The notes under the pieces were generated by a model. That model ran no database searches and was not told the origin of the DNA. It saw nothing but the letters and a program-made list of their open reading frames with translations. The position numbers were made by a program, and so were the translations under genes. 56,740 bases of DNA from Candidatus Micrarchaeota archaeon (GTDB taxonomy: Archaea; Iainarchaeota; Iainarchaeia; JAADDC01), in the NCBI GenBank assembly GCA_027046625.1, contig JALTXX010000006.1:1-56740 (forward strand). The letters are read 5' to 3'. Below are positions 1 to 20,784 of this stretch, one piece after another; within the stretch, counting starts at the first letter, position 1, and the number at the start of each line of letters is the position of its first letter.

Positions 1-92
1 ATCACATACCACCCCTTCCTCCACACTCCAATCAAACCCATCGGGGTATATATAACTTTCCTTTGGGTATTTGGTATTTAGGGCTTCGATGA
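1..92. repeat. Copy A of a 92-nt perfect direct repeat (partner 5474..5565); may extend beyond the window edge
   Basis: Base-by-base comparison: atcacatacc...gggcttcgatga is identical in both places. The copies diverge at position 93 (a) versus 5566 (g). Confidence 0.95.
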
Positions 93-102
93 ATAAACCA
101 AA
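1..102 (-). pseudogene. Orphan cassette 3 (partial): start-less copy of the junction region of the giant protein. The frame opens after TAG at 103-105 and runs out of the window.
   Basis: The minus-strand frame reads FGLFIEALNTKYPKESYIYPDGFDWSVEEGVVCD..., matching giant-protein residues just upstream of CDNRLNV. There is no ATG/GTG/TTG between the upstream stop and the homology. Nt 1-92 are identical to 5474-5565. Confidence 0.6.
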
Positions 103-234
103 CTAGGTTTAGAAGAATACAAGAAAGAAAGTGTCAATAGGGAGCCACGCCTTCATATGTGTAGGAATCGTCCGGGTTTATGTCTGGCATATTAAAATAT
201 TACCTTTTCATCTATTTAAACCTTGTCTATGTAA

Positions 235-1518
235 CTAGCCTTTTACTGTCCTCACTCTCGCCTCTCCAAGCTTTTTTAGTACATGCCAGTGTCTTTCATA
301 TGATATCTTCCCCTCTTTAGCATGTTGTAAGGTTTCTTTCAATAGGTTAGTAACCTCATCATGGTCTTTTAGATATTCTCTAACTCTTGGAGGACGTAAG
401 TAAAATGTATAGGGTAAGCTATGTGGTAAATACGCATGTTCAAACCTAAGCTCTTCCCCATCTTTTGTCTTAAAGTGGAAGTACCTCTTCTTCACAGCCT
501 CGTACAATGACTTTGCCCCTTTATGAATCTGATCCTTCAACTCAGGCCTTCTCTTCTCCAACATCTTCAGATACAGCGGATAAATCATTTCATTTATTAT
601 ATCATAGTGTGCACCAAGTTCCTCATCCAAATGTAGCATCCTCTCCTCTAGCTCTTTATGTCCCTTAGCATATGAAGCCCTACGAGGAAGAATTCTCGAC
701 GTTTCTGACAACATATCAGGGAAGAACACATCATCCTTAGCTTCTCCCTTCTCATGCTTCTCAATCCTCTCTAGAATTTTATCCACTAACTCTCCTAGCC
801 TATCCCCTACATACCAATGACTTTTTGCCATCTCACTAAGAATCTTCTTATACCTACTCTCCTCTACAGCCTTGAACACTTTATCCTCAAAAGGTTCAAT
901 GAACCTTATGAACTCATGATGTGAGTATACGTTGAGTTCTGGGTTTCTAATAATGTTCTCCAGGTCCTTCCACAACCCTATAACCAACGCCTTCTTTTGC
1001 TTTGTATCCATGTTCTCCAACACAGAAACATCAAAGATATCTGGCAACGCAGCCCTGTACTTCTCCCAATGCTTTTCCACGTGCTCAGCCACCTTCTTAG
1101 CAGCCTCTGCAATTTCCTCGCTAGTAAACTCTTCTTTCTTCAACGTCCTATAAGCATCCTCTGGCAACGGATACACCTTATGATAAATATCAGCCAACTC
1201 CTCCCATATCATTTTGTTAGCACCCCTCTCTCTATACTCCAAAAACCTATCAATTAACGGCTTAGCAGCCCTGCTGTGCATGGGGGATTTGTATATCTTT
1301 AGCACATGCTCATATACTTCCTTCGGAATGTTACCCTCCTTATCCTTTGTTAACTCCCCCAACAGATAGAGAATATAATAGGCCTTCAGTTTAGGAAACG
1401 GATAGTAAGTTTCATAGTATCTCCTTGGCTCTTTTTCCTCCTCCCTCTCCTTCCTTTCCTTCCTACCAAATAACCTCTTCAACAACTTCCACGTATCCTC
1501 AGGTGTGAAGATAACCAC
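235..1518 (-). CDS. Uncharacterised 427-aa soluble, highly charged protein; paralog of 2885..4252; cassette partner gene
   Basis: Full ORF with a GTG start 2 nt after the stop of the upstream ORF (1521). It shares blocks with the 455-aa protein: YY..YP.PK.KAYY, HVEK.W, IEPFEDKV.EAV..SRY. No TM segment and no motif I recognise. Confidence 0.8.
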   Translation of the reverse strand: MVIFTPEDTWKLLKRLFGRKERKEREEEKEPRRYYETYYPFPKLKAYYILYLLGELTKDKEGNIPKEVYEHVLKIYKSPMHSRAAKPLIDRFLEYRERGANKMIWEELADIYHKVYPLPEDAYRTLKKEEFTSEEIAEAAKKVAEHVEKHWEKYRAALPDIFDVSVLENMDTKQKKALVIGLWKDLENIIRNPELNVYSHHEFIRFIEPFEDKVFKAVEESRYKKILSEMAKSHWYVGDRLGELVDKILERIEKHEKGEAKDDVFFPDMLSETSRILPRRASYAKGHKELEERMLHLDEELGAHYDIINEMIYPLYLKMLEKRRPELKDQIHKGAKSLYEAVKKRYFHFKTKDGEELRFEHAYLPHSLPYTFYLRPPRVREYLKDHDEVTNLLKETLQHAKEGKISYERHWHVLKKLGEARVRTVKG

Positions 1519-1520
1519 CT

Positions 1521-1922
1521 TTAACCACCTCCACCTATGTTACCACTACTAACTACTCCCAACTCATATTTAACATTACCCTCCCCATCCTTCACCTTCA
1601 CAATATCTCCGATTCGCACCAACTCAATAACTTTACTTTTCTTTAGTTTTGAAACATCAGATTCACTTACTCCATAGGCAGCAGCAGCCCCAGCACCATA
1701 GGCAGCTGTTGTACATAGAAACTCCTTGAGTAAATTCTGTTTAGATGGCTTGGTAGCCTTAAACTTAGGAAGCCTTCTCTTAATATTCTTTATTTTGTTT
1801 AGTTTTTGTCTGTATTTGTATATAATTGGATCTATGTTTATTTTAGCTTGTTTGAACAAGCCTGATTGATTATTTCTAAATAAATTTTTTATGCTATCAA
1901 GAGACAAACCCGACATACTCAA
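1521..1922 (-). CDS. Orphan cassette 2, downstream part (133-aa ORF; track start is TTG, first ATG at 1916)
   Basis: Same frame as 2031-2714, with 35 sense codons between TAG and the TTG. Its C-terminal half aligns with the extreme C-terminus of the giant protein. Its stop lies 2 nt before the 427-aa gene start. Confidence 0.5.
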   Translation of the reverse strand: MSMSGLSLDSIKNLFRNNQSGLFKQAKINIDPIIYKYRQKLNKIKNIKRRLPKFKATKPSKQNLLKEFLCTTAAYGAGAAAAYGVSESDVSKLKKSKVIELVRIGDIVKVKDGEGNVKYELGVVSSGNIGGGG

Positions 1923-2027
1923 TTCAGCAGTGTCAACCTGTGACTTACCATCCTTTATAATCTCGCTAAGTATTTTTGCCAGCTTCTTCTTATTATTATT
2001 ATTTCCACCGATTAAAACATTCCCGTA

Positions 2028-2714
2028 CTACTTCACAATCTCTCCCATAGCTTCCAGCACTACCACACCTTCCTCGCCCTCGGGTACCTTCTTAACCAAA
2101 CTTATGGCCAACTTTTCCCAATCATCTCCAGCCACTTCCTTCAACTCATCCCACCCTCCGCCCATCACACCTCTCAAAAACTTACTCGCCTCATCCGCTA
2201 TCGCTTTTTTCTTCTTACCTATAAACAACACCCGATCTAACCCACCTATTTTATTTTTGTTAATAACATTCTTCAGTGTATTTAACCTACTTACCGCATC
2301 GCCCACCAAAAAGATCCTGGCAGATATTGATACCGCCATTGGTACCACCCCAAACGCTATAATCAGCTTCTTTTCTCCGATCTCTCCAACCCCGGCCATC
2401 TCCTTAAACTTATTCAGTATTCCTTCTCTGTCAGCAGCTATCAAAGCAGTAGGAGCAGCACACTGAACCGCTCCAGATATTGCCCCCATAATGCCTCCCA
2501 CACCTAGTGTGGTAATTGTTTTACATAACATATATGCACCCCAGCAGGCACCAGTAAATGCCCCAAGAGACTTGTTGCTCAACCTCTTCTCTAGCACACC
2601 AATCTCAGCCTTACCATAAGATTCCCCATCGAACTTCACTGTAATAAACTCGCTCTCCCCAACCTTCTCCTTCAACAACTTCTTCAGCCTAACATTGTCA
2701 ATGTTAATCCACAC
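2028..2714 (-). CDS. Orphan cassette 2, upstream part (228-aa ORF if translated from GTG 2714); Gly/Ala/Cys-rich hydrophobic helices
   Basis: ORF track. The GTG start lies inside the CDNRLNV junction codons. Contains the glycine-zipper-like segment GGIMGAISG. Ends at TAG 2028-2030, in frame with the next ORF. Confidence 0.55.
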   Translation of the reverse strand: MWINIDNVRLKKLLKEKVGESEFITVKFDGESYGKAEIGVLEKRLSNKSLGAFTGACWGAYMLCKTITTLGVGGIMGAISGAVQCAAPTALIAADREGILNKFKEMAGVGEIGEKKLIIAFGVVPMAVSISARIFLVGDAVSRLNTLKNVINKNKIGGLDRVLFIGKKKKAIADEASKFLRGVMGGGWDELKEVAGDDWEKLAISLVKKVPEGEEGVVVLEAMGEIVK

Positions 2715-2884
2715 ATTTAACCTATTATCACAAATAGCTTCATCCCACTCGATGAAGTTTTAAGAAAAAGGAACAACAAGAAATTAACCACCAGAGTAGG
2801 ATACCTCCCCATCGTCAAATACCTCTGGCATATTAATATAGGGTCATTCCTTGTATTTATACCTTATTATAGTTTTCTGTGTAT

Positions 2885-4252
2885 CTATGGTTTGAATTTA
2901 TACCTTACCTTCCTGTGTTCAGCAGATGCCAGCTCATCCATGAACATCTCATGGTGCATCTTCAATATCCTCCCTCCCTTGGCCTTGTTTATCATCCCCT
3001 CAAGCTTTCCAAGTGTCTCCTCAAAGTCCTTCAAATACTCCCTATACATAGCCTTGTACTTTTCTCTGTTTAGATACCCCTCAGACAATTGTTGCAACAG
3101 AGCCCCATGCTCATACCTTTCCAGCTTTCCATCCGTTGTTTTATAGTGCAACAGCTCCCTCTTTGCAATGTTCCACAGATGCTCCCTCTCCACCTCCTCT
3201 CCAAATTCCTCCACGAGCTTCTGTCTCACCTCAGGATACTTATGCTTCGCCTCTTCAAGCTTCTGAATATAGTAGGGATAGAACATCATGGAGAGTACAG
3301 AGTCCTTCCTCCTATAGTCTGCCCACTCCTTTTCATCCCCTGCAAGGTGCTCAATCTGTTCAGGCGGTACTATACCACGCGGATCCGGAGTGAGTATATT
3401 ACCATACGTATCCTCAAAAATCCTGAGTATTTCATCCTTATCCTCAAGGTTCCGCTTGGCTCTTCGCACCCACTCCTTTAGCCTTTCACTCCTCTCCCTG
3501 CTAACGGTATCCTCCAATGCCTTCATATACCTACTATCCTTCACCGCTTCCAACACCTTATCCTCAAAGGGTTCAATGAGCCTCATAAGTTCCTGGTACG
3601 TCTTACCATATTGGGAAAAGTAGTACCGTCTCCTGTGAAGGTATATATCATGCACCAAGCCTACCACAGCCCTCCTCTTCTGATCCTCACTCATCCTGTT
3701 AACATGCTCTTCATCGTAAATGAGATGCAAAATCTGCTCATAGTCCTTCCAGTTCTTCTCCACATGCTCTATAATCTTCTTAAGAGTCTCTTCCGCCTTT
3801 GGGTCCTCCTCGAAAAATACAGAGCTTCCTACTTGATACTTCTTCATCAACCAATAAAGCCTGTCCTTATTCTCTATGGGCAGCTCAGACAGCCTGTCCA
3901 TAAACTTGAGAATTACATAGTCCGGAGGAACTCCTCCCTCCCTGTCCCACGTCCTGAACAGTACCTCATGGAAGTTCTTGTTTGCATAGAGATACCTGTG
4001 GCTCTTCAGATTCTCAAGGTACTTTTTATACAAATCCACGTTCACCCCTTCCTTATCAGAGAATAAATGCCCCAATGTGTTAAGGAAGTAATAAGCTTTC
4101 ACCTTGGGATAGGGTGTGTAGTAGACAGTAGTATAATGCCTTTCCTCCTCATCCTCCCTCTTCTTCTCCTCCCTCTTTACCTTCTTTACCTCCTTCTTCT
4201 CCCCCTTCTTTCTCAATAGCCACGCAATTAGATCACCCAAGAGCTCGGCCAT
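2885..4252 (-). CDS. Uncharacterised 455-aa soluble, highly charged protein; paralog of 235..1518; partner gene of the giant protein
   Basis: The ATG lies 6 nt after the giant gene's TGA (4259-4261). K/E-rich N-terminus followed by the conserved blocks shared with the 427-aa protein. Confidence 0.85.
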   Translation of the reverse strand: MAELLGDLIAWLLRKKGEKKEVKKVKREEKKREDEEERHYTTVYYTPYPKVKAYYFLNTLGHLFSDKEGVNVDLYKKYLENLKSHRYLYANKNFHEVLFRTWDREGGVPPDYVILKFMDRLSELPIENKDRLYWLMKKYQVGSSVFFEEDPKAEETLKKIIEHVEKNWKDYEQILHLIYDEEHVNRMSEDQKRRAVVGLVHDIYLHRRRYYFSQYGKTYQELMRLIEPFEDKVLEAVKDSRYMKALEDTVSRERSERLKEWVRRAKRNLEDKDEILRIFEDTYGNILTPDPRGIVPPEQIEHLAGDEKEWADYRRKDSVLSMMFYPYYIQKLEEAKHKYPEVRQKLVEEFGEEVEREHLWNIAKRELLHYKTTDGKLERYEHGALLQQLSEGYLNREKYKAMYREYLKDFEETLGKLEGMINKAKGGRILKMHHEMFMDELASAEHRKVRYKFKP

Positions 4253-4258
4253 TCTATA

Positions 4259-7200
4259 TCACCTCCAACTCCAACCCATTCGTCCTTTGATATGCGTATC
4301 CCCCTTATACAGCTCCCTATATTCTATCTTTATTTTCTCCTCATCCGGCTCAACACCCACGTAAACCTCCCTCAATCCTAACACCTTCTCTATCTTCCAC
4401 ATACCATCGGATACCTTATCTATCTTTATGACTGTAAGAGAGGCCCCCTTCGTTGTTTTGGCAGCTGCATACGCAGAGGTGACACCTGCAAGGTAAGCAG
4501 CAGCCAAGCACCCAGCATCCTTTATTACGTTTTTAAGCTTACCGGTCAACCCTTCTGCAACCGTAGAAACCCTGGAAGCCTCCCTTTCCGGATTAGAAAT
4601 CTTTAGATCTCCGGTTATCAAATCACTAACGGTTCTTTGGGCGTTTTTACTAGAAATACTGCCTAATTGAATTCTGGGAATTCCTTCTAAAGCACTTCTG
4701 AGATTATCTCCACTATTATTACCTTTCAGTCCCCTAAGCAGTCCATCCAATTCATAGCTTTCATTTCCTACCCTAACAACATACGTTCCATTTTTTCCCT
4801 TCTCAGCCCTACTCAGCAGCAGCTTCAAATATGCCAGCGGCTCAAATCCATTATCTATATCTTTTGCAGCCTTCACAATATCAACAGGGTTAATCCCGTT
4901 CTCCAAGAGGATTTCATACCCCTTCTTACCGAAGAATCCTCTAGCAAACCTGTCATACACACTATCCATGTCCCTGTAGAATATCTTTGCAAACCTGCCA
5001 TCTTCGTTGAAGTTCTTCAACCCTTCAAAGGCCCTCTTATAATCCACTACCCACCTATGTATCGCAGCATCCGCCGCCACAATGCTGCCCCCTACAAGCA
5101 CCGCAGGCAACCACCCCTCCTTCACCGCTTCTGTAACCTCACCCCTCTCCACAGATATAATGGCATTCTTTAACTGATCTTTGTAATTATAGACCGCTGC
5201 TCCACTAGGTGCACACATAAATACTCCCTGAGCGACAGAGCTCAGGAAACCACCCTTCCACACCTTCCAAGCACCACATGCAGCATAGACAGCCGTACAT
5301 GTAGCTACAAAGGTAGCAACGGTGGTTTTGTTCACCAAAGCCTCTGCAAACTTCACATCTGCCGTTCCGTAGGAACTTCCATCATAGAGAATGACAATGT
5401 TCTGAGGATCGATCTTACTTAGCTCACCTCTCAGTCCAGCATCACCAATATCAGCACTAACGTTTAACCTATTATCACATACCACCCCTTCCTCCACACT
5501 CCAATCAAACCCATCGGGGTATATATAACTTTCCTTTGGGTATTTGGTATTTAGGGCTTCGATGAGTTTTGGAATGAGCTCGTTGATGGATTTGATCTCT
5601 CCCAGTGCAGTGGCAAGGTCTGTCTCATTGATGTTGGCCTCCATAAACTTTAGTTTCACCTCAGAGTACACTAATCTCCCGCCGATGATGTAGTACACAA
5701 GCAGAGGTAACTCCCATTTCTTATCAAACGTCAAGCTCTTATCTCCAGCCGAAATCTCCACTTGTGTACCATTCTTCCAAACAATGGTTAGGGTGGTACC
5801 GTTACCAATGGTAATACCATCGGTGGCTTTTGTCCCCTCTTTTGCAAGGATGCACATACCAGAGGAGCAGATAGAGGAACCTTCAATGCTCCAGCTCCAC
5901 TGCTTCAGGTTGCCGTTGCAGCTTTTCATGTAGGGGATGAGCAGCACAAACTCTTTCTTCTTTATTTCTCCAGTCGGTGGATAAACGTAGTAGGTAATAC
6001 CACCGTTGCTATTCTCTTTCTCGTAAACTACTTGGGTTGGATCCGCTATGAAGGTTTTGAAGGTTTCCTCTAGCTTGGAAGGTTCCACACCTTCGTTGAA
6101 GGTTACCGTGAAGGAGTTAGATGTCTCTTCTACCTTGAAGTGGGCCTGGTTGTTAAGGGAGCCTAACTTGAAGGTGATGGAGCTTTCGCTGGAGATGGTG
6201 GCGCCGGAGTTGTTTATTATGTTACTGAGGATATCGGGGACGGCGCCGCTTGACTCTACTTTTACCTCTACCTTATCGGGTAGATTGCCGGGATTCTTGG
6301 GGTTTATGAACCAGTAGAGGGGGAGCTTTACGTCGGGGAGCGAAGCGTTGGGGATAGTTTTGGCACATAGATAGGTTAGGCCTCCCTCCTTTTTGAGGGT
6401 GAAGGTGACAGAACCAGGTCCTATATCCATGGCAGCGACAGGGTTGGATTCACACTTGAGGAGGATGGGGGGATCTATGAAGTGATTGGCTGTGAGGGTC
6501 ATTTTTCTTGTGTAGAGAGTGAAGCTTACCTCCTTTTCTTTCATTGTTTCTGCAGTCTCTGTAATTCTTTGAACAACGTCAGAGAGGAAGAGGTATCTGC
6601 TGGATGGTACAGTTAATTGTTCCCCATCGATGGTGGTTACCTCTGTGTTGGGTTTTTCTTCAATGGTGATGGACAGATAACCCTCTGCGTTAGAGAGGTA
6701 AAGGATACCATCTTCTACCGTTTTAGGTATGGTTATGGATAGGAAGATTTTGTTATCTGAACCTGAAGAGGGTGGTAGTCTGATCGTTTTTGCTTCATTT
6801 GGTCTGAAAGTTACGCTGTTGACGGTAATGGGATAGTTGCAGCTGTTTGTGATAAATATTTGTGTGGTTCCGGGAGGAACAGATGATTGATAAATTATAC
6901 AATCTGTGGAGAAGGGTATAAGATGAATGGGTAGCTCCACTCTTCCCCTGTCGGTACCTATCACAATACGATACTCAGAGGAGGAAGCGGGAACCTCCTT
7001 TACCTCTATTGAAAGGGTTGCCGAGGTGGAACTTTTCTTGTTTATGGTGATGGGGAGAGCATCAAAGGATAGGGAGGCAGAAATGCGGTCGCTCAATACA
7101 TTTTTTATTCCATTTATAGTAGCACTTACCTCGTTAGAGGCAATGGTAACTTTATTGCTAAACTCTCCCGTGGAAGATGCTATCACATAAACCCTGTTGA

Positions 7201-10200
7201 AGGTCTGCTCATTATACTTGAATGTGAGGAGATATTGGGATGGGATGACGGTAACTTCCTTATCAATATTTACCTTCTTTCTGAGGGAGCCAATGGAGTA
7301 GGAAAGGAGAAGGGTGGCATTCCAGGTTGTAGGTTTGTCAACCTCCTCTCCTTTATAGGAGAGGGAGATGGAAATGCTTCCATCGGAGGGATCATCGTCT
7401 GAAAGACTTGCGGTGAAGAGGGAGGAGGGAGAGATGGAAACTCCCCCTATATCAAGGAAGGAAAGAACAGATCCGTCGTTTATGGTAATTGGTATCTCTG
7501 TCTCCCTATCTTCCACAAGGATGATAGGCTCCTCAACATCGAAGGACAGTCCTATACTCCCTTTCACTACGGTGAATGTTGTGGTAAAGTATCTCATCTC
7601 TCCTCCAAACTCATAACCCCATACTAGTGTTGCCTCACAGGAAGCTTCCCTACTTTCTGAAGTAAGGGTTACATCCATTTCCTCCTCTGAGGAAGAAGGT
7701 ATGGAGGTTGGAATGGATAGGGTTAGCTCCCCATTTTCACACACCTTCTCCATGCTTCCGTTCTCTGGATAGGCTAAGAATATGGTGTAGGGTGAGGTAT
7801 TCCTTATGGGAATGGATACCGAGTTAAATCTGCTTCCTTCGGGGAAGGGAATGGTAATAGTTTCTGGGATGTCAAGGAGAGGTTGCCCTGGAGGAATGTA
7901 GACAGTAACTACCTCAGGAACAACACTGCATACATAATCCAAACCTTCTTTGCAGATTACCTGCAGATCTCCTTTCATACCTGGAAGGGTTAGGATGCAC
8001 CTTCCGTTCTCAAAGGTGGCTGTTATACCTCCTCCGGCAGAACAGCTATCCCTCCCTACAATGACGTCAAAGGGCTGCATATCTCCAAGGGCAGGCCCGC
8101 TCAATGTGAGAGCTATGCTATCTATGCCCTTTGGAAGTGATACCTCAATGGGAAGTTCTTCTTTAAAAAGGAAGGAGAACCCCTCATTTACACGGACAAA
8201 TACCGTTCTATCACCAAGAACGGTAATATTTCTCGTGTTGGTGTAAAGTACTGCTCCATCCTTAGAAAATATTTGTAGTTTAGCCGCGTAAGAACCCTCC
8301 TTAACATTTTTTACCCTTAGCGTTACCTCCTTTACATCAAAGGGTTTTAGCGTGATACTTATGTCCTTCTTCTTGTCTCCGAAGCTGAGGGTAAGCTTTG
8401 CAGAGGAAGATTCTAGAGAGCATCTTATTACATAGGCTCTAACCTCTAGATTATCCCCCTCCAGTGCGGAGGCAACGTCTGTATACGTCTTTCCATCCCT
8501 TTCTACGTCAAAGGATAGGAGGCTGCCATACCCGTTGGTACATCTTGCCTCTCCTAGAGCTGGAATGACGGCAGTATCCGTATAGGAGGCGCCCTTATCT
8601 GTTTCAAGGGTGTAGCTTATTCTTGCATATCCATCCACATCGTACAGAGGTACAACAACCTCTACCTCTCCTGACAGATCATTCACCTTAACAGTTTTTA
8701 CCTCTGAGGAGCCATCGGGCTTGAATGCTTCTACTATGAGGGTGGCGCCGGTACTGTCAGGAGTGAGAGCATAGTCAAAGAGTAGGGTATACTGCTTTCC
8801 ACTCTCTATGGATGCATATAGCTCCCCCTTCTTTTTTACTCCCTTCAGGATGGCCTTCGGCGCCTCGTTTATGGGAGTAAGGTAAATATCTACCCGGGAG
8901 TATGTTGGTACTGCTACATCCTTCTTGGATGGCACATATCCTTCTGCGGACACATTTATGGTGTATTCACCCTTTGGAAGCATTACAATACCACAGCCAT
9001 TAATGTTTGTCCTCTTTGTAAGTTCTTTTCCTCCTGCTGTAACCCCTTCAATGGAAAGAGAGACATTATTTACATTTTCTACAGTATCCTCCCTTCTCCA
9101 AAGGATGCACACCTCAAGGGAGTACTCTCTCTCAGTTGCCCTTAGGGATCTTTCCATGATGGTTGTTTCGAAGGTGTCTGTTTTCCATACAAGGGTTGCC
9201 TTTACCTCTCCGTGAAGTTCTACCTTCTTTTCCTTTACCTGGGGTTCATTCTTCAACGAGAGGGAAATTGTTTCGTTGTTCAGGGTTAGCTCAAGAGAGC
9301 CGTGGCCAAACCCTCCCAGGGAAACCACACTCTCTGATGAGATGGTATCCTCCTCACCTTCCCACTTTACATAGTACCACAACTCCGTTCCATCGTAGTT
9401 CTGGAAGGGAATAGAGGTTGCGTAGAAGGTACCCTCCCCTGTAAACTCCTCTCTGGTATTATCCTTGTAGTGTAGGGTTGCAACGATCTTTATATCTACA
9501 TCTTTTATATCCCCTGTGAAGCTGAATCCCCTAAATGTAAAGTCTACATATTCCTTATCTGCGGCGTCCTTTGAAATTTCTTGGGAGAATGTCTTGAAGA
9601 GAGGGGATGATACACCAGCCTGTACCCTAACCTCTACGCTCTTTGCTTCGTTGTTTGTATAAACTCTTACATGTAGTTTACCTCCATTTATTAGTACCCT
9701 TCCGCTGGGCACCCCATTCTTGGTGAAATACCATTCTATGGTGCCGGTGGGCTTTTTCTCCCTGTACACAAGGGTTATGGCCTCGGTAGCAACAATCCTT
9801 TCATCTTTTAGAACCTCTACTCTGAGGGGTTGGGTTCTGTCCACCGTAAAATCGATACTTCCATAGGCAAATCCTTCCACAGGTATTTCCTTTTTATCCT
9901 TTATGATAAATCTGAGGGTGGCATTCCCCACTACTATGTATGTTATCGTAGCCTTTCCGTTTATGGCATCCACCTCTTCTGTGGGAGTTATAAGGTATAG
10001 GATACCTTCTGCTTCCTTTAGAGGGGCAGATATAAGCGTTACTTCCTGTTCAAAGCTCCCCTCTTCCTCACCGTTCTTCAATACCTTTACACGAAGTGTA
10101 TATTTTCCATCCTCTAAGGAGGGGGTTGGTATCTTAAGGGAGAGGGACGGAGGAGAGGGAGAGACCCTCTTGTTAAGAAGGGTTTTGCCGCCCATCTCTA

Positions 10201-11929
10201 CCAGAATGGTTCTCCCCTCATCGGAGGGGAAGTTTATAAGAATGGAGAGGTAGCCTCCTTTTAGAAGAACGGGCACCTCTTTTCCTTTGAAGAGTATTCC
10301 TATAGAGGCTGACAATTTATCTGGATAGGAATCTCTCATCACATCCTTAGGTATGACAATATCGCTTCCTGGCTCGATGCTTCCCGTGGAAAGCACCTTG
10401 TTGCCTACCTTGTATTCGTAGGTGTATTCATCGCCCAGTTCAAGTTTAAAGGTACATGTTTCTTTGCACTCCTTCCTATCGTAAAGCTCTCCATTCTTCT
10501 TTACCTCTACTATTCCGGGCAGAGGAACGCTAACCTTTGTATTTACAACAAGAGTGCCAAAATCCATGGTAACCTCCATGTCATCTGTTAGTTCTACTTT
10601 CCTCTCAACAGATCTGCCATATGCATACGCTGTAAGGGTATAGTTACCCTTTGGAAGGTAGGTTACCACTTTTCCGTTGTTCGTGGATAGTTTCCTATCC
10701 ACCTCTTTTATATGGACGGAAAATACCTTGACGGGTCCCTTTCTATGTTTTGCCTGTATGGTTAGCTTGTAAAGAGGTATAGAAGAGCTATTGGTCAGAG
10801 GAATGAGAGCGTAACCCTCCTCATCGGTGGTAACCTCAAGGTTTCCAACCTTCACAGTTTTGTTCTTTACGGGCTTTCCGTTATCTACAATTTGTTTTTT
10901 AAGATAAAACTGGCCTGTTCCAATATCTGCAACAATAATACTATCCTCGTTTGCAAAGAAAAAGTCAGAGACCCTATCTTTTACCTTTATCTGGTAATCT
11001 CCGGCACACACCTTAAAACTTACAGATCCATCTTTCCCTGTAACCTTTCGGTATGTTCCTCCCTGGGGGGAGAAGAGCTCAACTTGAACATCCTCTTGAG
11101 GCACCCCATCCTTTGCTACAAACACCACCACATTAACCCTTCTGCACTCTTCGTTACCTGCGAGGAACTTTAGATCCTCAAGGGGTTCTAGCTTTACCAT
11201 TCGTGTGTCGGAATTGGTGGTTAGGGTGACATTGAACTTCTTCTCCTTATAACCGACAGCTTTTACCGTAATAGTGTAGAGAACATTTTGCTTCAACTTC
11301 AGGGAGAGCTTGCCATCGTTTGCTTCATATGTAGAAACGGTATCTCCTTCCACTAGCACAAATGCGTGTAGAGCCTTCCCATCTGTATCCGTGATAAACA
11401 GCTCAAGGGTACCCCACCCTTCCTCTGGGGCGGAAGATTGTTTTAGAGTAATGGAAATACTTTCATCGCCTCCCACAAAGAAGGTTCTGCCAGTTCTTTC
11501 AAAGGCCGGATGATCCACTTCAATCCTTATCTCCCCTTCAGGAATGGGTTTAAGCTCTGCATATCCGAAATCATCCGTGTATGCTTCTGCTACAACTTCT
11601 CCGTTGAGAAACGCCTTTACAGTGGCACCTTTTACAGGATTCCCCTCCTCATCCTCCACATAGATAGATAGTATGTACTGGTTTTGAGGGATGGTAAGGA
11701 ATATGAACCCTCCTATTAGAAGTAGAACCACCCCAAGGAATAGAGGGAAGGGAGGGATACCCCTCTCATCTAAAAAATCATGCAATCTGTATACTGGCAA
11801 CCCCCTCTCATCTAAAAAGTCCAGCATTCTGTAGAAGGCATCTTCTAGAGAGGTGTAGAGGTTTCTCAGGATGGTGGCTACCATGTTGTAGTATAAGAGG
11901 CTTGGGAAGGTTTTAAACGTTGGGGTCAT
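4259..11929 (-). CDS. Giant (2556 aa) membrane-anchored cell-surface protein: N-terminal TM anchor, many Ig-like / CarboxypepD_reg-like beta-sandwich repeats, and a roughly 406-aa variable CT domain after CDNRLNV (Cys2151)
   Basis: Uninterrupted 7.67-kb ORF. TM segment FPLFLGVVLLLIGGFIFLTI near residue 60-80. Repeated segments such as VEDEEGNPVKGATVKAFLNGEVVAEAYTDDFGYAEL and TNINGCGIVMLPKGEYTINVSAEGY. The CT domain has 4 small-residue-rich hydrophobic helices. An alternative start at M16 (11884) is possible. Confidence 0.9.
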   Translation of the reverse strand: MTPTFKTFPSLLYYNMVATILRNLYTSLEDAFYRMLDFLDERGLPVYRLHDFLDERGIPPFPLFLGVVLLLIGGFIFLTIPQNQYILSIYVEDEEGNPVKGATVKAFLNGEVVAEAYTDDFGYAELKPIPEGEIRIEVDHPAFERTGRTFFVGGDESISITLKQSSAPEEGWGTLELFITDTDGKALHAFVLVEGDTVSTYEANDGKLSLKLKQNVLYTITVKAVGYKEKKFNVTLTTNSDTRMVKLEPLEDLKFLAGNEECRRVNVVVFVAKDGVPQEDVQVELFSPQGGTYRKVTGKDGSVSFKVCAGDYQIKVKDRVSDFFFANEDSIIVADIGTGQFYLKKQIVDNGKPVKNKTVKVGNLEVTTDEEGYALIPLTNSSSIPLYKLTIQAKHRKGPVKVFSVHIKEVDRKLSTNNGKVVTYLPKGNYTLTAYAYGRSVERKVELTDDMEVTMDFGTLVVNTKVSVPLPGIVEVKKNGELYDRKECKETCTFKLELGDEYTYEYKVGNKVLSTGSIEPGSDIVIPKDVMRDSYPDKLSASIGILFKGKEVPVLLKGGYLSILINFPSDEGRTILVEMGGKTLLNKRVSPSPPSLSLKIPTPSLEDGKYTLRVKVLKNGEEEGSFEQEVTLISAPLKEAEGILYLITPTEEVDAINGKATITYIVVGNATLRFIIKDKKEIPVEGFAYGSIDFTVDRTQPLRVEVLKDERIVATEAITLVYREKKPTGTIEWYFTKNGVPSGRVLINGGKLHVRVYTNNEAKSVEVRVQAGVSSPLFKTFSQEISKDAADKEYVDFTFRGFSFTGDIKDVDIKIVATLHYKDNTREEFTGEGTFYATSIPFQNYDGTELWYYVKWEGEEDTISSESVVSLGGFGHGSLELTLNNETISLSLKNEPQVKEKKVELHGEVKATLVWKTDTFETTIMERSLRATEREYSLEVCILWRREDTVENVNNVSLSIEGVTAGGKELTKRTNINGCGIVMLPKGEYTINVSAEGYVPSKKDVAVPTYSRVDIYLTPINEAPKAILKGVKKKGELYASIESGKQYTLLFDYALTPDSTGATLIVEAFKPDGSSEVKTVKVNDLSGEVEVVVPLYDVDGYARISYTLETDKGASYTDTAVIPALGEARCTNGYGSLLSFDVERDGKTYTDVASALEGDNLEVRAYVIRCSLESSSAKLTLSFGDKKKDISITLKPFDVKEVTLRVKNVKEGSYAAKLQIFSKDGAVLYTNTRNITVLGDRTVFVRVNEGFSFLFKEELPIEVSLPKGIDSIALTLSGPALGDMQPFDVIVGRDSCSAGGGITATFENGRCILTLPGMKGDLQVICKEGLDYVCSVVPEVVTVYIPPGQPLLDIPETITIPFPEGSRFNSVSIPIRNTSPYTIFLAYPENGSMEKVCENGELTLSIPTSIPSSSEEEMDVTLTSESREASCEATLVWGYEFGGEMRYFTTTFTVVKGSIGLSFDVEEPIILVEDRETEIPITINDGSVLSFLDIGGVSISPSSLFTASLSDDDPSDGSISISLSYKGEEVDKPTTWNATLLLSYSIGSLRKKVNIDKEVTVIPSQYLLTFKYNEQTFNRVYVIASSTGEFSNKVTIASNEVSATINGIKNVLSDRISASLSFDALPITINKKSSTSATLSIEVKEVPASSSEYRIVIGTDRGRVELPIHLIPFSTDCIIYQSSVPPGTTQIFITNSCNYPITVNSVTFRPNEAKTIRLPPSSGSDNKIFLSITIPKTVEDGILYLSNAEGYLSITIEEKPNTEVTTIDGEQLTVPSSRYLFLSDVVQRITETAETMKEKEVSFTLYTRKMTLTANHFIDPPILLKCESNPVAAMDIGPGSVTFTLKKEGGLTYLCAKTIPNASLPDVKLPLYWFINPKNPGNLPDKVEVKVESSGAVPDILSNIINNSGATISSESSITFKLGSLNNQAHFKVEETSNSFTVTFNEGVEPSKLEETFKTFIADPTQVVYEKENSNGGITYYVYPPTGEIKKKEFVLLIPYMKSCNGNLKQWSWSIEGSSICSSGMCILAKEGTKATDGITIGNGTTLTIVWKNGTQVEISAGDKSLTFDKKWELPLLVYYIIGGRLVYSEVKLKFMEANINETDLATALGEIKSINELIPKLIEALNTKYPKESYIYPDGFDWSVEEGVVCDNRLNVSADIGDAGLRGELSKIDPQNIVILYDGSSYGTADVKFAEALVNKTTVATFVATCTAVYAACGAWKVWKGGFLSSVAQGVFMCAPSGAAVYNYKDQLKNAIISVERGEVTEAVKEGWLPAVLVGGSIVAADAAIHRWVVDYKRAFEGLKNFNEDGRFAKIFYRDMDSVYDRFARGFFGKKGYEILLENGINPVDIVKAAKDIDNGFEPLAYLKLLLSRAEKGKNGTYVVRVGNESYELDGLLRGLKGNNSGDNLRSALEGIPRIQLGSISSKNAQRTVSDLITGDLKISNPEREASRVSTVAEGLTGKLKNVIKDAGCLAAAYLAGVTSAYAAAKTTKGASLTVIKIDKVSDGMWKIEKVLGLREVYVGVEPDEEKIKIEYRELYKGDTHIKGRMGWSWR
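5474..5565. repeat. Copy B of the 92-nt perfect direct repeat, inside the giant gene just upstream of its CT domain
   Basis: Identical to window positions 1-92. Encodes IEALNTKYPKESYIYPDGFDWSVEEGVVCD. Confidence 0.95.
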
Positions 11930-11957: not shown

Positions 11958-13229
11958 ATGGAACCGGGGGATGAGGTAGAATTCTACTGGAGAGGAGCAC
12001 GGAAGAAAGGGGTTTTCATAAAGGAAGAAGGGAAATACCTTATCTTTAAGCTTGAAAATGGTTACAATGTAGGTTTTCCTAAGGACGAGATAGAGAACAT
12101 AAAAATTATCTCTAAAAGGCATGTAGGAAAGCCAAAATTTCATTACAAACCGGAATTTAGGGAGGATCTGCCCCTTGTGGGGCTGGCAGCTACGGGGGGA
12201 ACCATCTCAGCAAGGGTGGACTACATAACAGGAGCGGTCACATCGGAATTTACGGTAGAGGATCTGGTAAACACCTTTCCAGAGATGAGGGAGGTGGCGC
12301 GCCCGAAGCTAAAGCAGATCTCCAATATATTTTCTGAAAACATGGTACCATCGCTGTGGAAAGATATTGCAAGAGAGATTTATGATCTTCTAAAGGAAAC
12401 AGAGGGAGTAGTGGTCACACACGGAACGGATACCATGCACTACACATCTTCATACCTTTCTTTTGCTATAGAAACGGGCAAACCAGTTGTACTAACCGGA
12501 GCCCAGCGCTCCTCAGACAGACCCTCCTCAGATGCAGCTTACAACCTCATCTCCTCCCTTTATGTGGCAGGACACTCCCCTCTAGGAGGAGTATTCGTCT
12601 GTATGCATGCATCTTCCTCAGATGGGAGGAATGCGGTCCATCTTGGGACAAGGGTGAGGAAGATGCATACCAGCAGAAGGGATACCTTCCAGAGCATAGG
12701 AAGGGATCCTGTCGCCTTTGTGGATCTGGAGATGAGGAAAGGAAAGATAGATCGTATCGATCTCGAGGTGCTGGACCCCTCCTTTAGTAGGGGAGATAAA
12801 CTTAACTTGAGAAATTACGTGAATGAAAATGTGGGACTCGTAAAATATTATCCTGGCATGAAAAGGGAGATATTCGAACGCTTCCTCTTCTCCCACGAGG
12901 GAGTTATCATAGAAGGAACAGGATTTGGACACATAAGGGAGGAGCTCATACCCATAATAGAGCAGGCAACACACTCCAACGTATTTGTTGGTATTACGTC
13001 CCAAACCATATGGGGCAGAACACATCCCCATGTATACTCAACAGCTGTAAGGATGGCAGAGGCAGGCGCTGTGTTCCTTGAGGATATGTTGCCCGAAACA
13101 GCCTTTGCAAAGCTTGTTTGGGTGATGGGGTTTGAAAAGGACCTAGAAAAGATAAAGGAGCATATGCTAACAAACTATGCGGGAGAGATTACAGAGAGGA
13201 GTGGGATAACATGGATCTCATCCTTATAA
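11958..13229 (+). CDS. gatD: Glutamyl-tRNA(Gln) amidotransferase subunit D (GatD)
   Basis: Asparaginase-like motifs ATGGTISARVDY and HGTDTM, with a typical GatD N-terminal domain. Overlaps gatE by 19 nt. Confidence 0.9.
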   Translation: MEPGDEVEFYWRGARKKGVFIKEEGKYLIFKLENGYNVGFPKDEIENIKIISKRHVGKPKFHYKPEFREDLPLVGLAATGGTISARVDYITGAVTSEFTVEDLVNTFPEMREVARPKLKQISNIFSENMVPSLWKDIAREIYDLLKETEGVVVTHGTDTMHYTSSYLSFAIETGKPVVLTGAQRSSDRPSSDAAYNLISSLYVAGHSPLGGVFVCMHASSSDGRNAVHLGTRVRKMHTSRRDTFQSIGRDPVAFVDLEMRKGKIDRIDLEVLDPSFSRGDKLNLRNYVNENVGLVKYYPGMKREIFERFLFSHEGVIIEGTGFGHIREELIPIIEQATHSNVFVGITSQTIWGRTHPHVYSTAVRMAEAGAVFLEDMLPETAFAKLVWVMGFEKDLEKIKEHMLTNYAGEITERSGITWISSL

Positions 13230-17413: not shown

Positions 17414-18025
17414 ATGATACTCGTTCTTGCGGAAGCCCCCCTTATGTTGGTGCCGAAAAGGTTTAGGAAAAGAAGGAGCGTGAAAGCGTTTAGGGAGCGT
17501 TTTAGAGTGAAGTATCCGGTGCTTGATATTAACTACATGCCCGATGTCTGTAGAGAGTTGGGAGTTAGCGGAAGACCAGACATTCTTCACTTATCTCTCC
17601 TCCTAGCACTGGAAAGTCCGTTGGCCAGAAAAGGGTTGTTGGATGTCTACTTTACTACAATAGAAGGGAAGATTTTTCACATAAAGAGGGGCACTCGCCT
17701 CCCAAGGGGGTATAGCAGATTCCTTGGCCTTATAGGGCAAACACTAGCTGAGGGATCTCCCTTTATAGAGGAGGTCACGGAGTTGCCCTTGAAAAAACCG
17801 ATAATATTGATGGATGAGAGAGGTGAAAGCAAACAGGTTTCATACTCCGATGCAACTGTTATAGTAGGTGCGTTTTCCCGAGGAACCTTCAGGAAAAATT
17901 ATAACGAAGATTTTAGGATATCTATCTATGAAGAACCCTTAAACACATGGGATGTGGTAGGAAGGGTGATAGCGTTTGCAGAGTTGGAGAAAAATATACT
18001 GGAGAGCGCCCCGGCCGGGATTTGA
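17414..18025 (+). CDS. nep1: Ribosomal RNA small subunit methyltransferase Nep1 (Emg1)
   Basis: MILVLAEAPLMLVPK..., then HLSLLLALESPLARKGLLDVYFTT and RLPRGYSRFLGLIGQ, are typical of Nep1. Start moved from 17273 to the ATG at 17414. Confidence 0.8.
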   Translation: MILVLAEAPLMLVPKRFRKRRSVKAFRERFRVKYPVLDINYMPDVCRELGVSGRPDILHLSLLLALESPLARKGLLDVYFTTIEGKIFHIKRGTRLPRGYSRFLGLIGQTLAEGSPFIEEVTELPLKKPIILMDERGESKQVSYSDATVIVGAFSRGTFRKNYNEDFRISIYEEPLNTWDVVGRVIAFAELEKNILESAPAGI

Positions 18026-18080
18026 ACCCGGGTCACGGGCTCGACAGGCCCGCATGCTAGCCGGACTACACCACCGGGGC
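18007..18080 (-). tRNA. tRNA-Asp (GUC)
   Basis: Manual cloverleaf. Acceptor GCCCCGG/CCGGGGC, anticodon stem CGGGC/GCCCG, loop CUGUCGA, T-loop UUCAAAU, discriminator G. No encoded CCA. Confidence 0.9.
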
Positions 18081-18115
18081 TCTAAGGAAGATGGGAAAAG
18101 GAAAGTTTAAAAAAT

Positions 18116-20560: not shown

Positions 20561-20634
20561 GGGCCCGCCGGGATTTGAACCCGGGTCGCGGCCGCCCGAA
20601 GGCCGTATGCTAGGCCAGGCTACACCACGGGCCC
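20560..20634 (-). tRNA. tRNA-Pro (CGG)
   Basis: Acceptor GGGCCCG/CGGGCCC, anticodon stem CGGCC/GGCCG, loop UUCGGGC, T-loop UUCAAAU, discriminator A. Confidence 0.9.
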
Positions 20635-20639
20635 ATTTA

Positions 20640-20713
20640 CGGGCCCGGGGGGATTCGAACCCCCGACACCCCGGTTAAAAGCCGGGTGCTCTACCTGGCT
20701 GAGCTACGGGCCC
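20640..20713 (-). tRNA. tRNA-Lys (UUU)
   Basis: Acceptor GGGCCCG/CGGGCCC, anticodon stem CCCGG/CCGGG, loop CUUUUAA, T-loop UUCGAAU, discriminator G. Lies 5 nt from tRNA-Pro. Confidence 0.9.
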
Positions 20714-20784
20714 AATTCCTCATTTCTCATAGGACATGGCAACATTTAAATAGGGGGAGCGTGATTATACCATGGGTGGTTTAT

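What the first reader, a model, noticed from the sequence alone, without database searches (positions are those of the whole stretch)
1521..2759. Orphan CT cassette 2 is one reading frame split by a single in-frame TAG
The 228-aa ORF (2031-2714) and the 133-aa ORF (1521-1922) are in the same frame. Only one stop codon separates them (TAG at 2028-2030), followed by 35 sense codons (YGNVLIGGNNNNKKKLAKILSEIIKDGKSQVDTAEL) before the called TTG start.

Together the two ORFs are colinear with the whole CT domain of the giant protein, including its last hydrophobic helix (FLCTTAAYGAGAAAAYG versus AGCLAAAYLAGVTSAYA). The frame is also open upstream to TAA at 2760-2762, through the junction motif.

Three readings are possible. 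It may be a silenced or decaying cassette carrying one nonsense mutation. It may be a deliberately interrupted storage copy. Or it may be subject to stop-codon readthrough.
Basis: seen in the sequence. Interest (0 to 1): 0.65.

Follow-up and report, generated by a model that had tools for sequence, protein, structure and literature searches.

The report
Stop-interrupted spare tail cassette, archaeal giant protein
A spare, start-less copy of the variable tail of a giant archaeal surface protein is one reading frame broken by a single ordinary TAG stop codon, most likely a recent knockout mutation in a silent cassette and not a special coding trick.

Summary
On the minus strand, 2759..1521 is one frame of 412 sense codons with a single internal stop (TAG, 2030-2028). 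The part after the TAG, taken alone, still aligns colinearly with the C-terminal module of the giant protein (4259-11929).

- The TAG is also present in a second public assembly of the same sample, which is 100% identical over window 38-2707.
- TAG is a normal stop in this genome: 14 of 42 long ORFs end in it, including both neighbour genes and conserved tRNA synthetases.
- Neither half has a Shine-Dalgarno or TATA signal. The downstream partner gene I2 is intact and has a strong one.
- The cassette has no start codon between the upstream TAA and the junction motif (V/I)CDNRLNV.

Best reading: a displaced "orphan" tail-plus-partner module, analogous to CDI/Rhs orphan cassettes, that carries one recent nonsense mutation. 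It looks recent because the 168 codons after the TAG are still open (chance about 3e-7).

Caveats:
- The TAG lies in an AT-rich stretch with only about 2x k-mer depth, and Logan's assembly breaks there.
- No homologue of this cassette exists in about 1.8 billion representative proteins, so no comparative test is possible.
- Readthrough and "deliberate interruption" have no support.

The TAG itself is ordinary. The surrounding cassette array on a DPANN-type giant protein is the more interesting object.

The parts
2031..2759 (-). N-half of orphan cassette 2. 243 sense codons, open from the TAA at 2760-2762. Holds the junction motif and a cluster of hydrophobic helices (residues about 76-109 and 127-159 of the joined frame).
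   Evidence: (z 14.5 versus the giant C-terminal module)
2713..2732 (-). Junction motif TGTGATAATAGGTTAAATGT (ICDNRLNV). It is 19 of 20 nt identical to the giant gene's 5460-5479 (VCDNRLNV). The GTG 'start' called at 2714 lies inside it.
2028..2030 (-). The single in-frame TAG (context AAG TAG TAC). It falls in a 12-residue insertion relative to the giant's module.
   Evidence: also present in ENA scaffold L027
1923..2027 (-). 35 sense codons between the TAG and the called TTG start. GC 0.35; codon-usage score is positive only in this frame.
1521..1922 (-). The called 133-aa ORF, which is the rest of the C-half. It holds the last hydrophobic helix (FLCTTAAYGAGAAAAYG) and a beta-hairpin-like KVKDGEGNVKYELGV. 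Its last codons (GGT GGA GGT GGT TAA) form the ribosome-binding site of the next gene. No SD or TATA lies before TTG 1922 or ATG 1916.
1526..1532 (-). GGAGGTG Shine-Dalgarno for I2, inside the cassette's last codons. The giant's tail carries the same arrangement for I1.
235..1518 (-). I2: intact 427-aa partner gene of cassette 2. It is a paralogue of I1 (29% identity over 421 aa, E 7e-33), soluble and charged, with no Pfam family.
2824..2865 (-). Conserved 42-nt element before the cassette (31 of 42 nt shared with 183-224). A TATAAATA box lies 22 nt before an ATG, the geometry of leaderless genes in this window. The ATG opens a 15-codon mini-ORF (2831-2784, MPEVFDDGEVSYSGG*).
2885..4252 (-). 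I1: 455-aa partner gene of the giant protein's own C-terminal module.
4259..5482 (-). C-terminal module (CT1) of the giant protein, from the junction motif to the stop. This is the full-length template against which cassette 2 is colinear.
1..92 (-). Start of a further cassette. These 92 nt are 100% identical to 5474-5565 (the pre-junction segment of the giant gene). Both the window and scaffold L027 end inside this repeat.

Best explanation
**What it is.** Window 2759..1521 (minus strand) is a displaced, start-less 'orphan' copy of the variable C-terminal module of the 2,556-aa giant surface protein. That module consists of a membrane-helix cluster, a helical region, a last hydrophobic helix and a short beta element. 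The orphan is followed by its own partner gene, I2.

**How the locus is built.** The layout is giant-CT1, I1, [promoter-like element, CT2, I2], [promoter-like element, next cassette]. It works like the orphan CT/immunity arrays of bacterial CDI and Rhs loci. Only the module fused to the giant gene is made. Spare modules can be brought in by recombination at the conserved junction ((V/I)CDNRLNV plus upstream homology).

**The TAG.** Cassette 2 carries one genuine nonsense codon. TAG is read as stop in this organism, so the cassette as it stands cannot supply a complete module. A product would end before the last hydrophobic helix.

**Why it is tolerated.** The cassette is not translated on its own, so the mutation is neutral. 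It must be recent, or a strain polymorphism, because nothing else in the 412 codons is damaged. I2 stays functional because it has its own Shine-Dalgarno site. It probably also has its own transcript, from the TATA-like element upstream of the cassette.

**Shown:** the single frame, the colinearity of both halves, the lack of start signals, TAG as a normal stop, the intact partner gene, and the TAG in two assemblies.

**Inferred:** cassette switching by recombination, silence of the cassette, neutrality and recency of the mutation, and the role of I1/I2.
For: - Single frame with one internal stop.
- Each half separately aligns colinearly with the giant's C-terminal module: N-half z 14.5; C-half score 73 versus 38.6 +/- 6.6, 0 of 1000 shuffles. 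Total length from the motif is 403 versus 406 residues.
- Codon usage is coding-like in this frame through the spacer and the C-half.
- The 168 post-TAG codons are open, P about 3e-7.
- No ATG lies between the TAA at 2760 and the motif. GTG 2714 lies inside the conserved motif. No SD or TATA precedes ATG 1916 or TTG 1922. I1 and I2 both have GGAGGTG 7-10 nt upstream.
- I2 is a full-length paralogue of I1.
- TAG ends 14 of 42 long ORFs, including I1, I2, AlaRS and TrpRS, and the two synthetases end at their family-profile ends.
- The TAG is identical in ENA scaffold L027, one unbranched contig from 38 to 2707.
- A 92-nt perfect repeat of the pre-junction segment starts the next cassette.
- CDI orphans likewise lack initiation signals and keep the junction motif (PMC3150448).
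Against: - The stretch 1765-2030 has only 2.2x k-mer depth or less in the one public run. Logan's contigs leave 1980-2030 uncovered. The contig carrying the N-half ends with three letters, exactly at the TAG position, that did not align to the window.
- Gene callers annotate two separate genes of 228 aa and 131 aa.
- GC3 drops from 0.49 to 0.31 at about the TAG. The cassette could therefore be a recombinant of two sources, with the stop at a scar.
- There is no homologue of the cassette, no RNA data and no second allele, so silence, neutrality and recency are untested.
- A promoter-like element directly upstream means the cassette is probably transcribed.
Confidence: 0.6

Rival explanations
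1. The TAG is not the true or majority sequence. It would be a low-coverage error or a minority variant, and the cassette is an intact 412-codon frame in most cells.
For: - Depth is 2.2 at 1787-1979 and 0 at 1980-2030, against 7.7-11.2 in the flanks and about 12 genome-wide.
- The Logan contig covering 2031-2682 has three extra terminal letters that did not align where the TAG lies.
- No gene product matching 'N-half ending at this stop' is on record for the Logan contig.
- The sample clearly holds more than one haplotype of the array.
Against: - Two differently broken assemblies (the 56.7-kb window contig and the 2.67-kb ENA scaffold L027) carry the identical TAG, and L027 is unbranched across it.
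- No branch contigs or loose ends were reported at 1764, 1787, 1979 or 2031. The low depth coincides with GC of 0.25-0.33, so it may be coverage bias.
- The three unaligned letters could not be read with these tools.
Confidence: 0.1
2. The two halves are two real, independently translated small proteins: a 228-aa membrane protein and a 131-133-aa protein. This would be a split stand-alone version of the module, expressed from the promoter-like element upstream.
For: - Gene callers predict exactly these two genes in both the NCBI and ENA records.
- A TATA-like element with leaderless geometry lies upstream of the cassette.
- Both halves keep coding-like codon usage and open frames.
Against: - No SD or TATA lies before either putative start, whereas internal operon genes here (I1, I2) have GGAGGTG.
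- GTG 2714 sits inside the conserved junction motif, which in the giant gene reads GTT.
- The 35 codons before the TTG are open, coding-like and part of the colinear alignment.
- The only full-length template, the giant gene, is continuous.
Confidence: 0.12
3. The cassette is a recombinant of two different modules. The TAG and the 12-residue insertion around it mark the scar of the join. This is compatible with the best explanation for what the stop does now.
For: - GC/GC3 falls from 0.45/0.49 to 0.36/0.31 close to the TAG.
- The TAG lies in an insertion relative to the giant's module.
- The population shows a recombinant stub: a second haplotype shares the junction plus 26 codons, then diverges at 2653.
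Against: - The AT-rich zone (1700-2030) ends inside the C-half, not at a module boundary.
- It encodes a K/N/I-rich linker, which alone lowers GC.
- No donor sequences are known.
Confidence: 0.1
4. The stop is decoded. This would be programmed readthrough or TAG recoding (for example pyrrolysine) that yields the full module.
For: Only the intact 168-codon frame after the TAG.
Against: - TAG terminates a third of the long ORFs in the window, including conserved synthetases at their profile ends.
- None of the 4 tRNAs in the window has a CUA anticodon.
- No Rfam element lies in 1-4400.
- The cassette has no start codon, so readthrough alone would not give a product.
Confidence: 0.03

Closest known systems
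[quoted passage not shown] 2011, PMC3150448)
   Same: - C-terminal gene fragments sit downstream of the full-length gene.
- Each begins at a short conserved junction motif and generally lacks translation initiation signals.
- Each is followed by its own small partner gene.
- Fragments keep variable amounts of homology to the main gene upstream of the motif.
- Some orphans are disrupted.
   Different: - The host is an archaeon.
- There is no CdiA/CdiB, TPS, Rhs/YD or VENN/PxxxxDPxGL feature.
- The variable module is about 400 aa with membrane helices and no recognisable toxin domain.
- The partner is a 427-455-aa soluble charged protein, not a small immunity protein.
- Toxin and immunity activity are untested.
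VARTIG modules of Thermococcales (Makarova et al. 2021, PMC8416519)
   Same: An archaeal locus with a large Ig-domain surface protein, a hypervariable C-terminal region shaped by recombination, variable downstream genes and gene fragments. It is compared by its authors to polymorphic toxin systems.
   Different: - In VARTIG the variable part is an Ig domain of arCOG07710 proteins (mostly >500 aa), and these arCOGs are represented only in Thermococcales.
- Here the variable part is helical and membrane-embedded.
- The giant protein's N-terminal module occurs in DPANN MAGs.
- GatD is only distantly like the Pyrococcus protein.
Silent donor cassettes of antigenic-variation systems (Neisseria pilS, Borrelia vls, Anaplasma msp2 pseudogenes; from general knowledge, not tested here)
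   Same: Promoter-less or start-less partial copies are stored next to an expression site. Copies with stops or truncations can still donate segments by gene conversion.
   Different: No evidence here for segmental conversion. There are only two or three cassettes, and each is paired with a partner gene, which antigenic-variation stores lack.
Giant surface proteins of Ca. Iainarchaeum / Micrarchaeota MAGs (DPANN), found here as P0008-P0011 and loci L001-L026
   Same: - A shared N-terminal module (LEDxYYxxLDxLDxxGxPVY..G(I/L)PxFP, a membrane helix, then CarboxypepD_reg-type Ig-like domains).
- Similar size, 2,050-2,900 aa.
- A hydrophobic cluster several hundred residues before the C-terminus.
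- A gene of about 480-590 aa directly downstream.
   Different: - Their downstream partner family is not detectably related to I1/I2.
- Their tails are not detectably related to CT1 or CT2.
- No junction repeats or orphan cassettes appear in the 2-3 kb of downstream sequence available.

Membership tests
Orphan C-terminal cassette of a polymorphic (toxin-type) locus, in the sense of Poole et al. 2011 | [quoted passage not shown] | tested here: met
   Joined frame versus giant residues 2150-2519, E 3e-14. Each half is separately significant.
Orphan C-terminal cassette of a polymorphic (toxin-type) locus, in the sense of Poole et al. 2011 | A short conserved motif marks the constant/variable boundary and begins the fragment | tested here: met
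   (V/I)CDNRLNV, 19 of 20 nt identical, occurs only at 2713-2732 and 5460-5479 (0.06 expected by chance). Similarity falls to 21-27% after it.
Orphan C-terminal cassette of a polymorphic (toxin-type) locus, in the sense of Poole et al. 2011 | The fragment lacks its own translation initiation signals | tested here: met
   No ATG between the TAA at 2760 and the motif. GTG 2714 lies inside the motif without a proper SD. I1 and I2 have GGAGGTG. Expression itself was not measured.
Orphan C-terminal cassette of a polymorphic (toxin-type) locus, in the sense of Poole et al. 2011 | Each fragment is followed by its own cognate partner (immunity) gene | tested here: inconclusive
   The arrangement is met: I2 follows CT2 as I1 follows CT1, and they are paralogues at 29% identity. 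An immunity function is not testable here. I1/I2 are large, soluble and match no family.
Orphan C-terminal cassette of a polymorphic (toxin-type) locus, in the sense of Poole et al. 2011 | The variable region is a toxin | not testable with these tools
   No Pfam family. No homologue in 1.84 billion representatives. The AlphaFold model has pLDDT 40. Only hydrophobic helices are recognisable.
Orphan C-terminal cassette of a polymorphic (toxin-type) locus, in the sense of Poole et al. 2011 | Homology to the main gene upstream of the motif, giving a substrate for recombination | tested here: inconclusive
   Cassette 2 keeps only the 20-nt motif and about 8 weakly similar residues upstream. The next cassette keeps 92 nt at 100%. 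No recombination event was observed directly, although a second haplotype diverges 60 nt after the motif.
CDI (CdiA/CdiB) or Rhs system proper | TPS/FHA repeats with VENN, or Rhs/YD repeats with PxxxxDPxGL | tested here: not met
   Pfam finds only CarboxypepD_reg-type and other Ig-like domains in the giant protein. The genome is archaeal (GatD/GatE and archaeal-type synthetases).
VARTIG (Thermococcales) | arCOG07710 Ig-domain protein with a hypervariable C-terminal Ig domain, in Thermococcales | tested here: not met
   The variable module is helical with membrane segments. GatD scores 343 bits against the P. abyssi protein and a similar 317 bits against the second solved archaeal GatD, so Pyrococcus is not a close relative. 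The giant's N-terminal module is found in DPANN MAGs.
Genetic-code TAG recoding (pyrrolysine or reassignment) | TAG is avoided as a stop, in-frame TAGs occur in conserved genes, and a tRNA(CUA) is present | tested here: not met
   TAG ends 14 of 42 long ORFs. AlaRS and TrpRS end at TAG at their profile ends. No tRNA(CUA) is among the 4 tRNAs of the window. The rest of the genome was not available.
DPANN-type giant surface protein family (found here) | N-terminal LEDxYYxxLDxLDxxGxPVY module, a membrane helix and CarboxypepD_reg domains in a protein of more than 2,000 aa | tested here: met
   BLAST E 1e-14 to 6e-16 against the N-termini of L001/L002 giants. Alignment. 23 loci in Ca. Iainarchaeum / Micrarchaeota MAGs.

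The most novel reading that the evidence does not exclude
The array is a working store of alternative tail-plus-partner modules for a DPANN-type giant surface protein. Such a protein could serve host attachment or cell-cell recognition. Interrupted cassettes such as this one would still be used: segmental recombination could draw on either half, as pseudogene donors do in antigenic-variation systems. On that reading, the TAG is a tolerated or even selected 'off' state of a stored module, not decay. This would be the first silent-cassette switching system described in archaea of this kind.
Probability: 0.12. Interest if true: 0.75.

Novelty: new variant of a known kind. Interest (0 to 1): 0.3.

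Why it matters
The TAG matters little by itself. A nonsense mutation in a silent spare cassette is what one expects in orphan-module arrays.

It is useful as a marker. It shows that cassette 2 is not under selection for its own translation, while its partner gene I2 is kept intact. That is the pattern that defines orphan toxin/immunity-like arrays in bacteria.

The context deserves attention for three reasons:
- The cassette array has a conserved junction, paired partner genes, a perfect 92-nt recombination substrate and two haplotypes in one sample.
- It sits on a giant surface protein whose N-terminal module occurs in DPANN archaea.
- Its variable modules and partners have no relatives in public data.

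If the array really switches tails, it would bear on how tiny symbiotic archaea vary the proteins that contact their hosts or competitors.

Tried and rejected
1. **Homologues of the cassette.** A word-indexed search of 5.8 billion proteins found only the window's own 228-aa ORF. A full HMMER scan of 1.84 billion representatives found only the two own halves plus two spurious tandem-repeat proteins. Comparative and dN/dS tests are therefore impossible.
2. **Homologues of I1/I2.** Only the window's own proteins and one 98%-identical variant turned up.
3. **Related loci.**
   - The first GTDB genome scan, with the giant's last 1,013 aa, found nothing.
   - A JGI metagenome scan with the junction motif found nothing.
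   - A second genome scan with the N-terminal module found 23 DPANN loci. None shows CT, I or junction similarity.
4. **Structure.** AlphaFold models of CT1 (pLDDT 40) and I2 (pLDDT 45) were too poor for fold searches.
5. **Pfam on both halves.** No significant family. The weak Bacteriocin_IIc hit (E 0.037) was rejected as noise.
6. **Plus-strand ORF 1891-2466, which spans the TAG.** Its codon usage is antisense-like (-0.28 per codon), so it was rejected as a shadow ORF.
7. **Rfam and terminator scans of 1-4400.** Nothing relevant. The sigma-70 promoter scan does not apply to archaea.
8. **RNA runs.** None are available.
9. **Reading the three unaligned letters of the Logan contig.** A look-up of the stop-terminated fragment found no record.
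10. **A conserved 'ANAAG(M/Y)xxY' helix in DPANN giants that resembles the last helix here.** HMM E-values were 0.14-1.3, so it is kept only as a lead.
Full report
**1. The observation**

On the minus strand the frame that opens after the TAA at 2762-2760 runs for 243 sense codons (NFIEWDEAICDNRLNV...EAMGEIVK). It then meets TAG at 2030-2028 and continues for 168 sense codons to TAA at 1523-1521. The ORF finder lists the two pieces as a 228-aa ORF (GTG 2714) and a 133-aa ORF (TTG 1922), with 35 open codons between the TAG and the TTG.

This frame has 2 stops. The other two minus-strand frames have 39 and 49. A 35-codon spacer of local composition stays open in 4.3% of shuffles. The full 168-codon post-TAG stretch stays open with P about 3e-7.

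The joined 412 residues align colinearly with residues 2150-2519 of the 2,556-aa protein encoded at 11929-4259 (21% identity, E 3e-14). The decisive test is that the post-TAG half, taken alone, aligns at the expected colinear place. That alignment includes the helix FLCTTAAYGAGAAAAYG opposite AGCLAAAYLAGVTSAYA and the following KV(K/S)DG element. Its score is 73 against 38.6 +/- 6.6 for 1,000 shuffles, and none reaches it. It finds nothing in the rest of the giant protein.

From the motif to the end, the two modules are 403 and 406 residues long. Codon-usage scores are positive in this frame, and negative in the others, for the N-half, the spacer and the C-half.

**2. Is the TAG real?**

The only public run that holds the locus is a hydrothermal-vent metagenome.

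The case for doubt comes from Logan's contigs of that run:
- They cover 214-1764 at depth 11.2, 1787-1979 at 2.2 and 2031-2682 at 7.7.
- Nothing covers 1980-2030.
- The contig carrying the N-half has three terminal letters, exactly where the TAG lies, that did not align.
- Genome-wide depth is about 12.
- The low-depth zone coincides with a zone of 25-33% GC.

The case for a real TAG:
- A separately assembled ENA scaffold from the same sample (L027, 2,670 nt) is 100% identical to window 38-2707, TAG included.
- L027 is one unbranched contig between the two repeat or branch points of the locus.
- No branch contigs or loose ends were reported at the edges of the dip.

I take the TAG as real with about 90% confidence. 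The depth dip is probably AT-related coverage loss. Only read-level data can settle it.

**3. TAG is an ordinary stop here**

Of 42 non-overlapping ORFs of at least 150 aa, 14 end in TAG, 15 in TAA and 13 in TGA. Both neighbour genes I1 and I2 end in TAG. AlaRS and TrpRS end in TAG exactly where their family profiles end. None of the four tRNAs in the window reads TAG, and no Rfam element lies in 1-4400. Recoding or programmed readthrough has nothing in its favour except the intact downstream frame.

**4. Start signals**

In this window the first genes of operons are leaderless, with a TATA box about 22 nt before the ATG. Internal genes have GGAGGTG 7-10 nt upstream.
- I1 and I2 both have that Shine-Dalgarno site. 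It is encoded by the last codons of the preceding module (...GWSWR* for the giant, ...NIGGGG* for cassette 2).
- Neither ATG 1916 nor TTG 1922 has any such signal.
- GTG 2714 lies inside the conserved junction motif. The giant gene has GTT at the equivalent codon.
- No ATG lies between the TAA at 2760 and the motif.

The two 'genes' of the automatic annotations are therefore most likely ORF-finder products of one interrupted, start-less frame.

**5. The locus**

On the minus strand the order is as follows:
- the giant gene, with junction VCDNRLNV at 5479-5460 followed by module CT1;
- I1 (455 aa), 6 nt after the giant's stop;
- a 125-nt spacer;
- cassette 2 (junction ICDNRLNV, then CT2 with the TAG);
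- I2 (427 aa), 2 nt after the CT2 stop;
- a 141-nt spacer;
- 92 nt that are 100% identical to the giant gene's pre-junction segment (1-92 = 5474-5565).

The window ends inside that repeat. I1 and I2 are paralogues (29% identity over 421 residues, E 7e-33).

Both spacers share a 42-nt element (31 of 42 nt identical). It has a TATA box 22 nt before an ATG that opens a 15- or 18-codon mini-ORF. This is the geometry of real leaderless genes here, so each cassette probably has its own transcript, which would serve the partner gene.

**6. Population heterogeneity**

At 2653, 60 nt downstream of the junction motif in gene sense, Logan's graph branches. The shared junction contig has depth 16.6. It splits into the window's N-half (7.7) and another path (9.0).

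A second ENA scaffold (L029) corresponds to window 4531-2653 at 97.9% identity. It carries an I1 variant of 459 aa and ends at that branch point. So the sample holds either two strains, or two copies, of the segment CT1-end / I1 / spacer / junction. The array is clearly being reshuffled.

**7. What the module is**

- CT1 and CT2 have no Pfam family and no relative in 1.84 billion representative proteins.
- Both have a cluster of hydrophobic helices just after the junction. A late Ala/Gly-rich helix follows in both: it passes the hydrophobicity threshold only in the giant's module, and in CT2 it is seen from the colinear alignment.
- The AlphaFold model is unreliable (pLDDT 40). It suggests an all-helical module ending in a beta hairpin.
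- I1/I2 are soluble, charged, helical and unmatched.

The giant protein has an N-terminal module of about 45 aa plus a membrane helix, then Ig-like CarboxypepD_reg domains. That N-terminal module occurs in 2,050-2,900-aa proteins of Ca. Iainarchaeum and Micrarchaeota MAGs. Those proteins are usually followed by a conserved partner gene of 480-590 aa. That partner family is not detectably related to I1/I2, and no junction repeats are seen in those loci.

The window is chromosomal archaeal DNA, carrying GatD/E, five aminoacyl-tRNA synthetases and a family B polymerase. It is not from Thermococcales and is probably from a DPANN lineage. That assignment is an inference.

**8. Mechanism, as best supported**

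The locus works like the orphan CT/immunity arrays of CDI and Rhs systems. There, fragments lack initiation signals, begin at the junction motif, keep variable upstream homology and are each paired with a partner gene (PMC3150448).

Cassette 2 is a displaced module that is not translated by itself. A nonsense mutation in it is neutral and therefore unremarkable. I2 remains intact because it has its own ribosome-binding site and probably its own promoter. The absence of any second lesion in 412 codons says the TAG is recent or polymorphic.

If the whole cassette were recombined into the giant gene, the product would stop before the last hydrophobic helix. Partial recombination could still use either half; that is general knowledge from antigenic-variation systems and was not tested here.

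The GC3 drop near the TAG and the 12-residue insertion around it leave open that the stop marks a recombination scar.

**9. Comparison and novelty**

The cassette is not a member of CDI, Rhs or VARTIG, because their defining domains are absent. It behaves like their orphan modules.

The TAG finding itself is ordinary, and I score it 0.3. The array is the more novel object. It has unmatched modules and partners, and it sits on a giant surface protein of a type found in DPANN MAGs. I found no description of it in the papers searched.

Noticed in passing
window 1-92 (minus strand) and 5474-5565: A 92-nt stretch is 100% identical to the giant gene's pre-junction segment and starts a further cassette at the window's left end. 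Both the window contig and ENA scaffold L027 end inside it, so the array continues beyond the window. In Logan's graph the only continuation of this repeat is the giant's own CT1 contig, so the next cassette may be a second copy of CT1-I1.
   Followed up: partly
window 2824-2865 and 183-224 (minus strand); mini-ORFs 2831-2784 and 190-134: A conserved 42-nt element (31 of 42 nt identical) precedes each orphan cassette. It has a TATA box 22 nt before an ATG, the geometry of leaderless genes in this window. The ATG opens a mini-ORF of 15 or 18 codons (MPEVFDDGEVSYSGG*, MPDINPDDSYTYEGVAPY*). The first ATG is in frame with cassette 2 but separated from it by two TAA codons.
   Followed up: partly
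window 2653 (branch point); locus L029 = window 4531-2653: The sample holds a second haplotype or copy. It is 97.9% identical across the CT1 end, I1 (variant of 459 aa), the spacer and the junction. It diverges from the window 26 codons after the junction motif into sequence resembling another promoter-like element. Depths are 7.7 + 9.0 = 16.6.
   Followed up: partly
window 2888-3771 (I1): Logan depth over I1 is 27.6, about twice the genome baseline of 12. Logan's consensus differs from the window at 11 positions. This suggests two I1-like copies per genome, or two strains.
   Followed up: no
window 1521-1535 and 4259-4275 (minus strand): The last codons of each C-terminal module (NIGGGG*, GWSWR*) encode the GGAGGTG ribosome-binding site of the partner gene, which starts 2-6 nt after the stop. 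Module and partner are therefore physically coupled units.
   Followed up: yes
window 11884-11929 (minus strand): Relatives of the giant protein begin at the position of Met16 (MVATILRNLYTSLEDAFY...). A TTTAAAA box lies inside the 15 extra codons. The true start is probably 11884, not 11929.
   Followed up: partly
loci L002/L003 (protein P0009): A distant giant relative of 2,829 aa ends in a lytic transglycosylase (SLT, PF01464) domain. It sits next to a T2SSE-type ATPase and a second giant gene. So some members of this giant family carry a recognisable cell-wall-degrading C-terminal domain.
   Followed up: no
window 13211-15505 (plus strand): The GatE ORF is 764 aa, but the GatE profiles match only residues 160-761. 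Either the real start lies about 480 nt downstream of the listed ATG, or there is an unexplained N-terminal extension overlapping the end of gatD.
   Followed up: no
window 41520-44714 (minus strand): The 1,064-aa family B DNA polymerase matches its profiles only in separated pieces (about residues 21-495 and 624-716), well below the curated cut-offs. It may be divergent, or it may carry an insertion.
   Followed up: no
window 18007-18673 and 20008-21341: Logan depth spikes (up to 856) occur at the tRNA genes, with apparent 106-108-nt 'skips' at 20585-20694. This most likely reflects cross-mapping of conserved tRNA sequences from other organisms in the metagenome.
   Followed up: no
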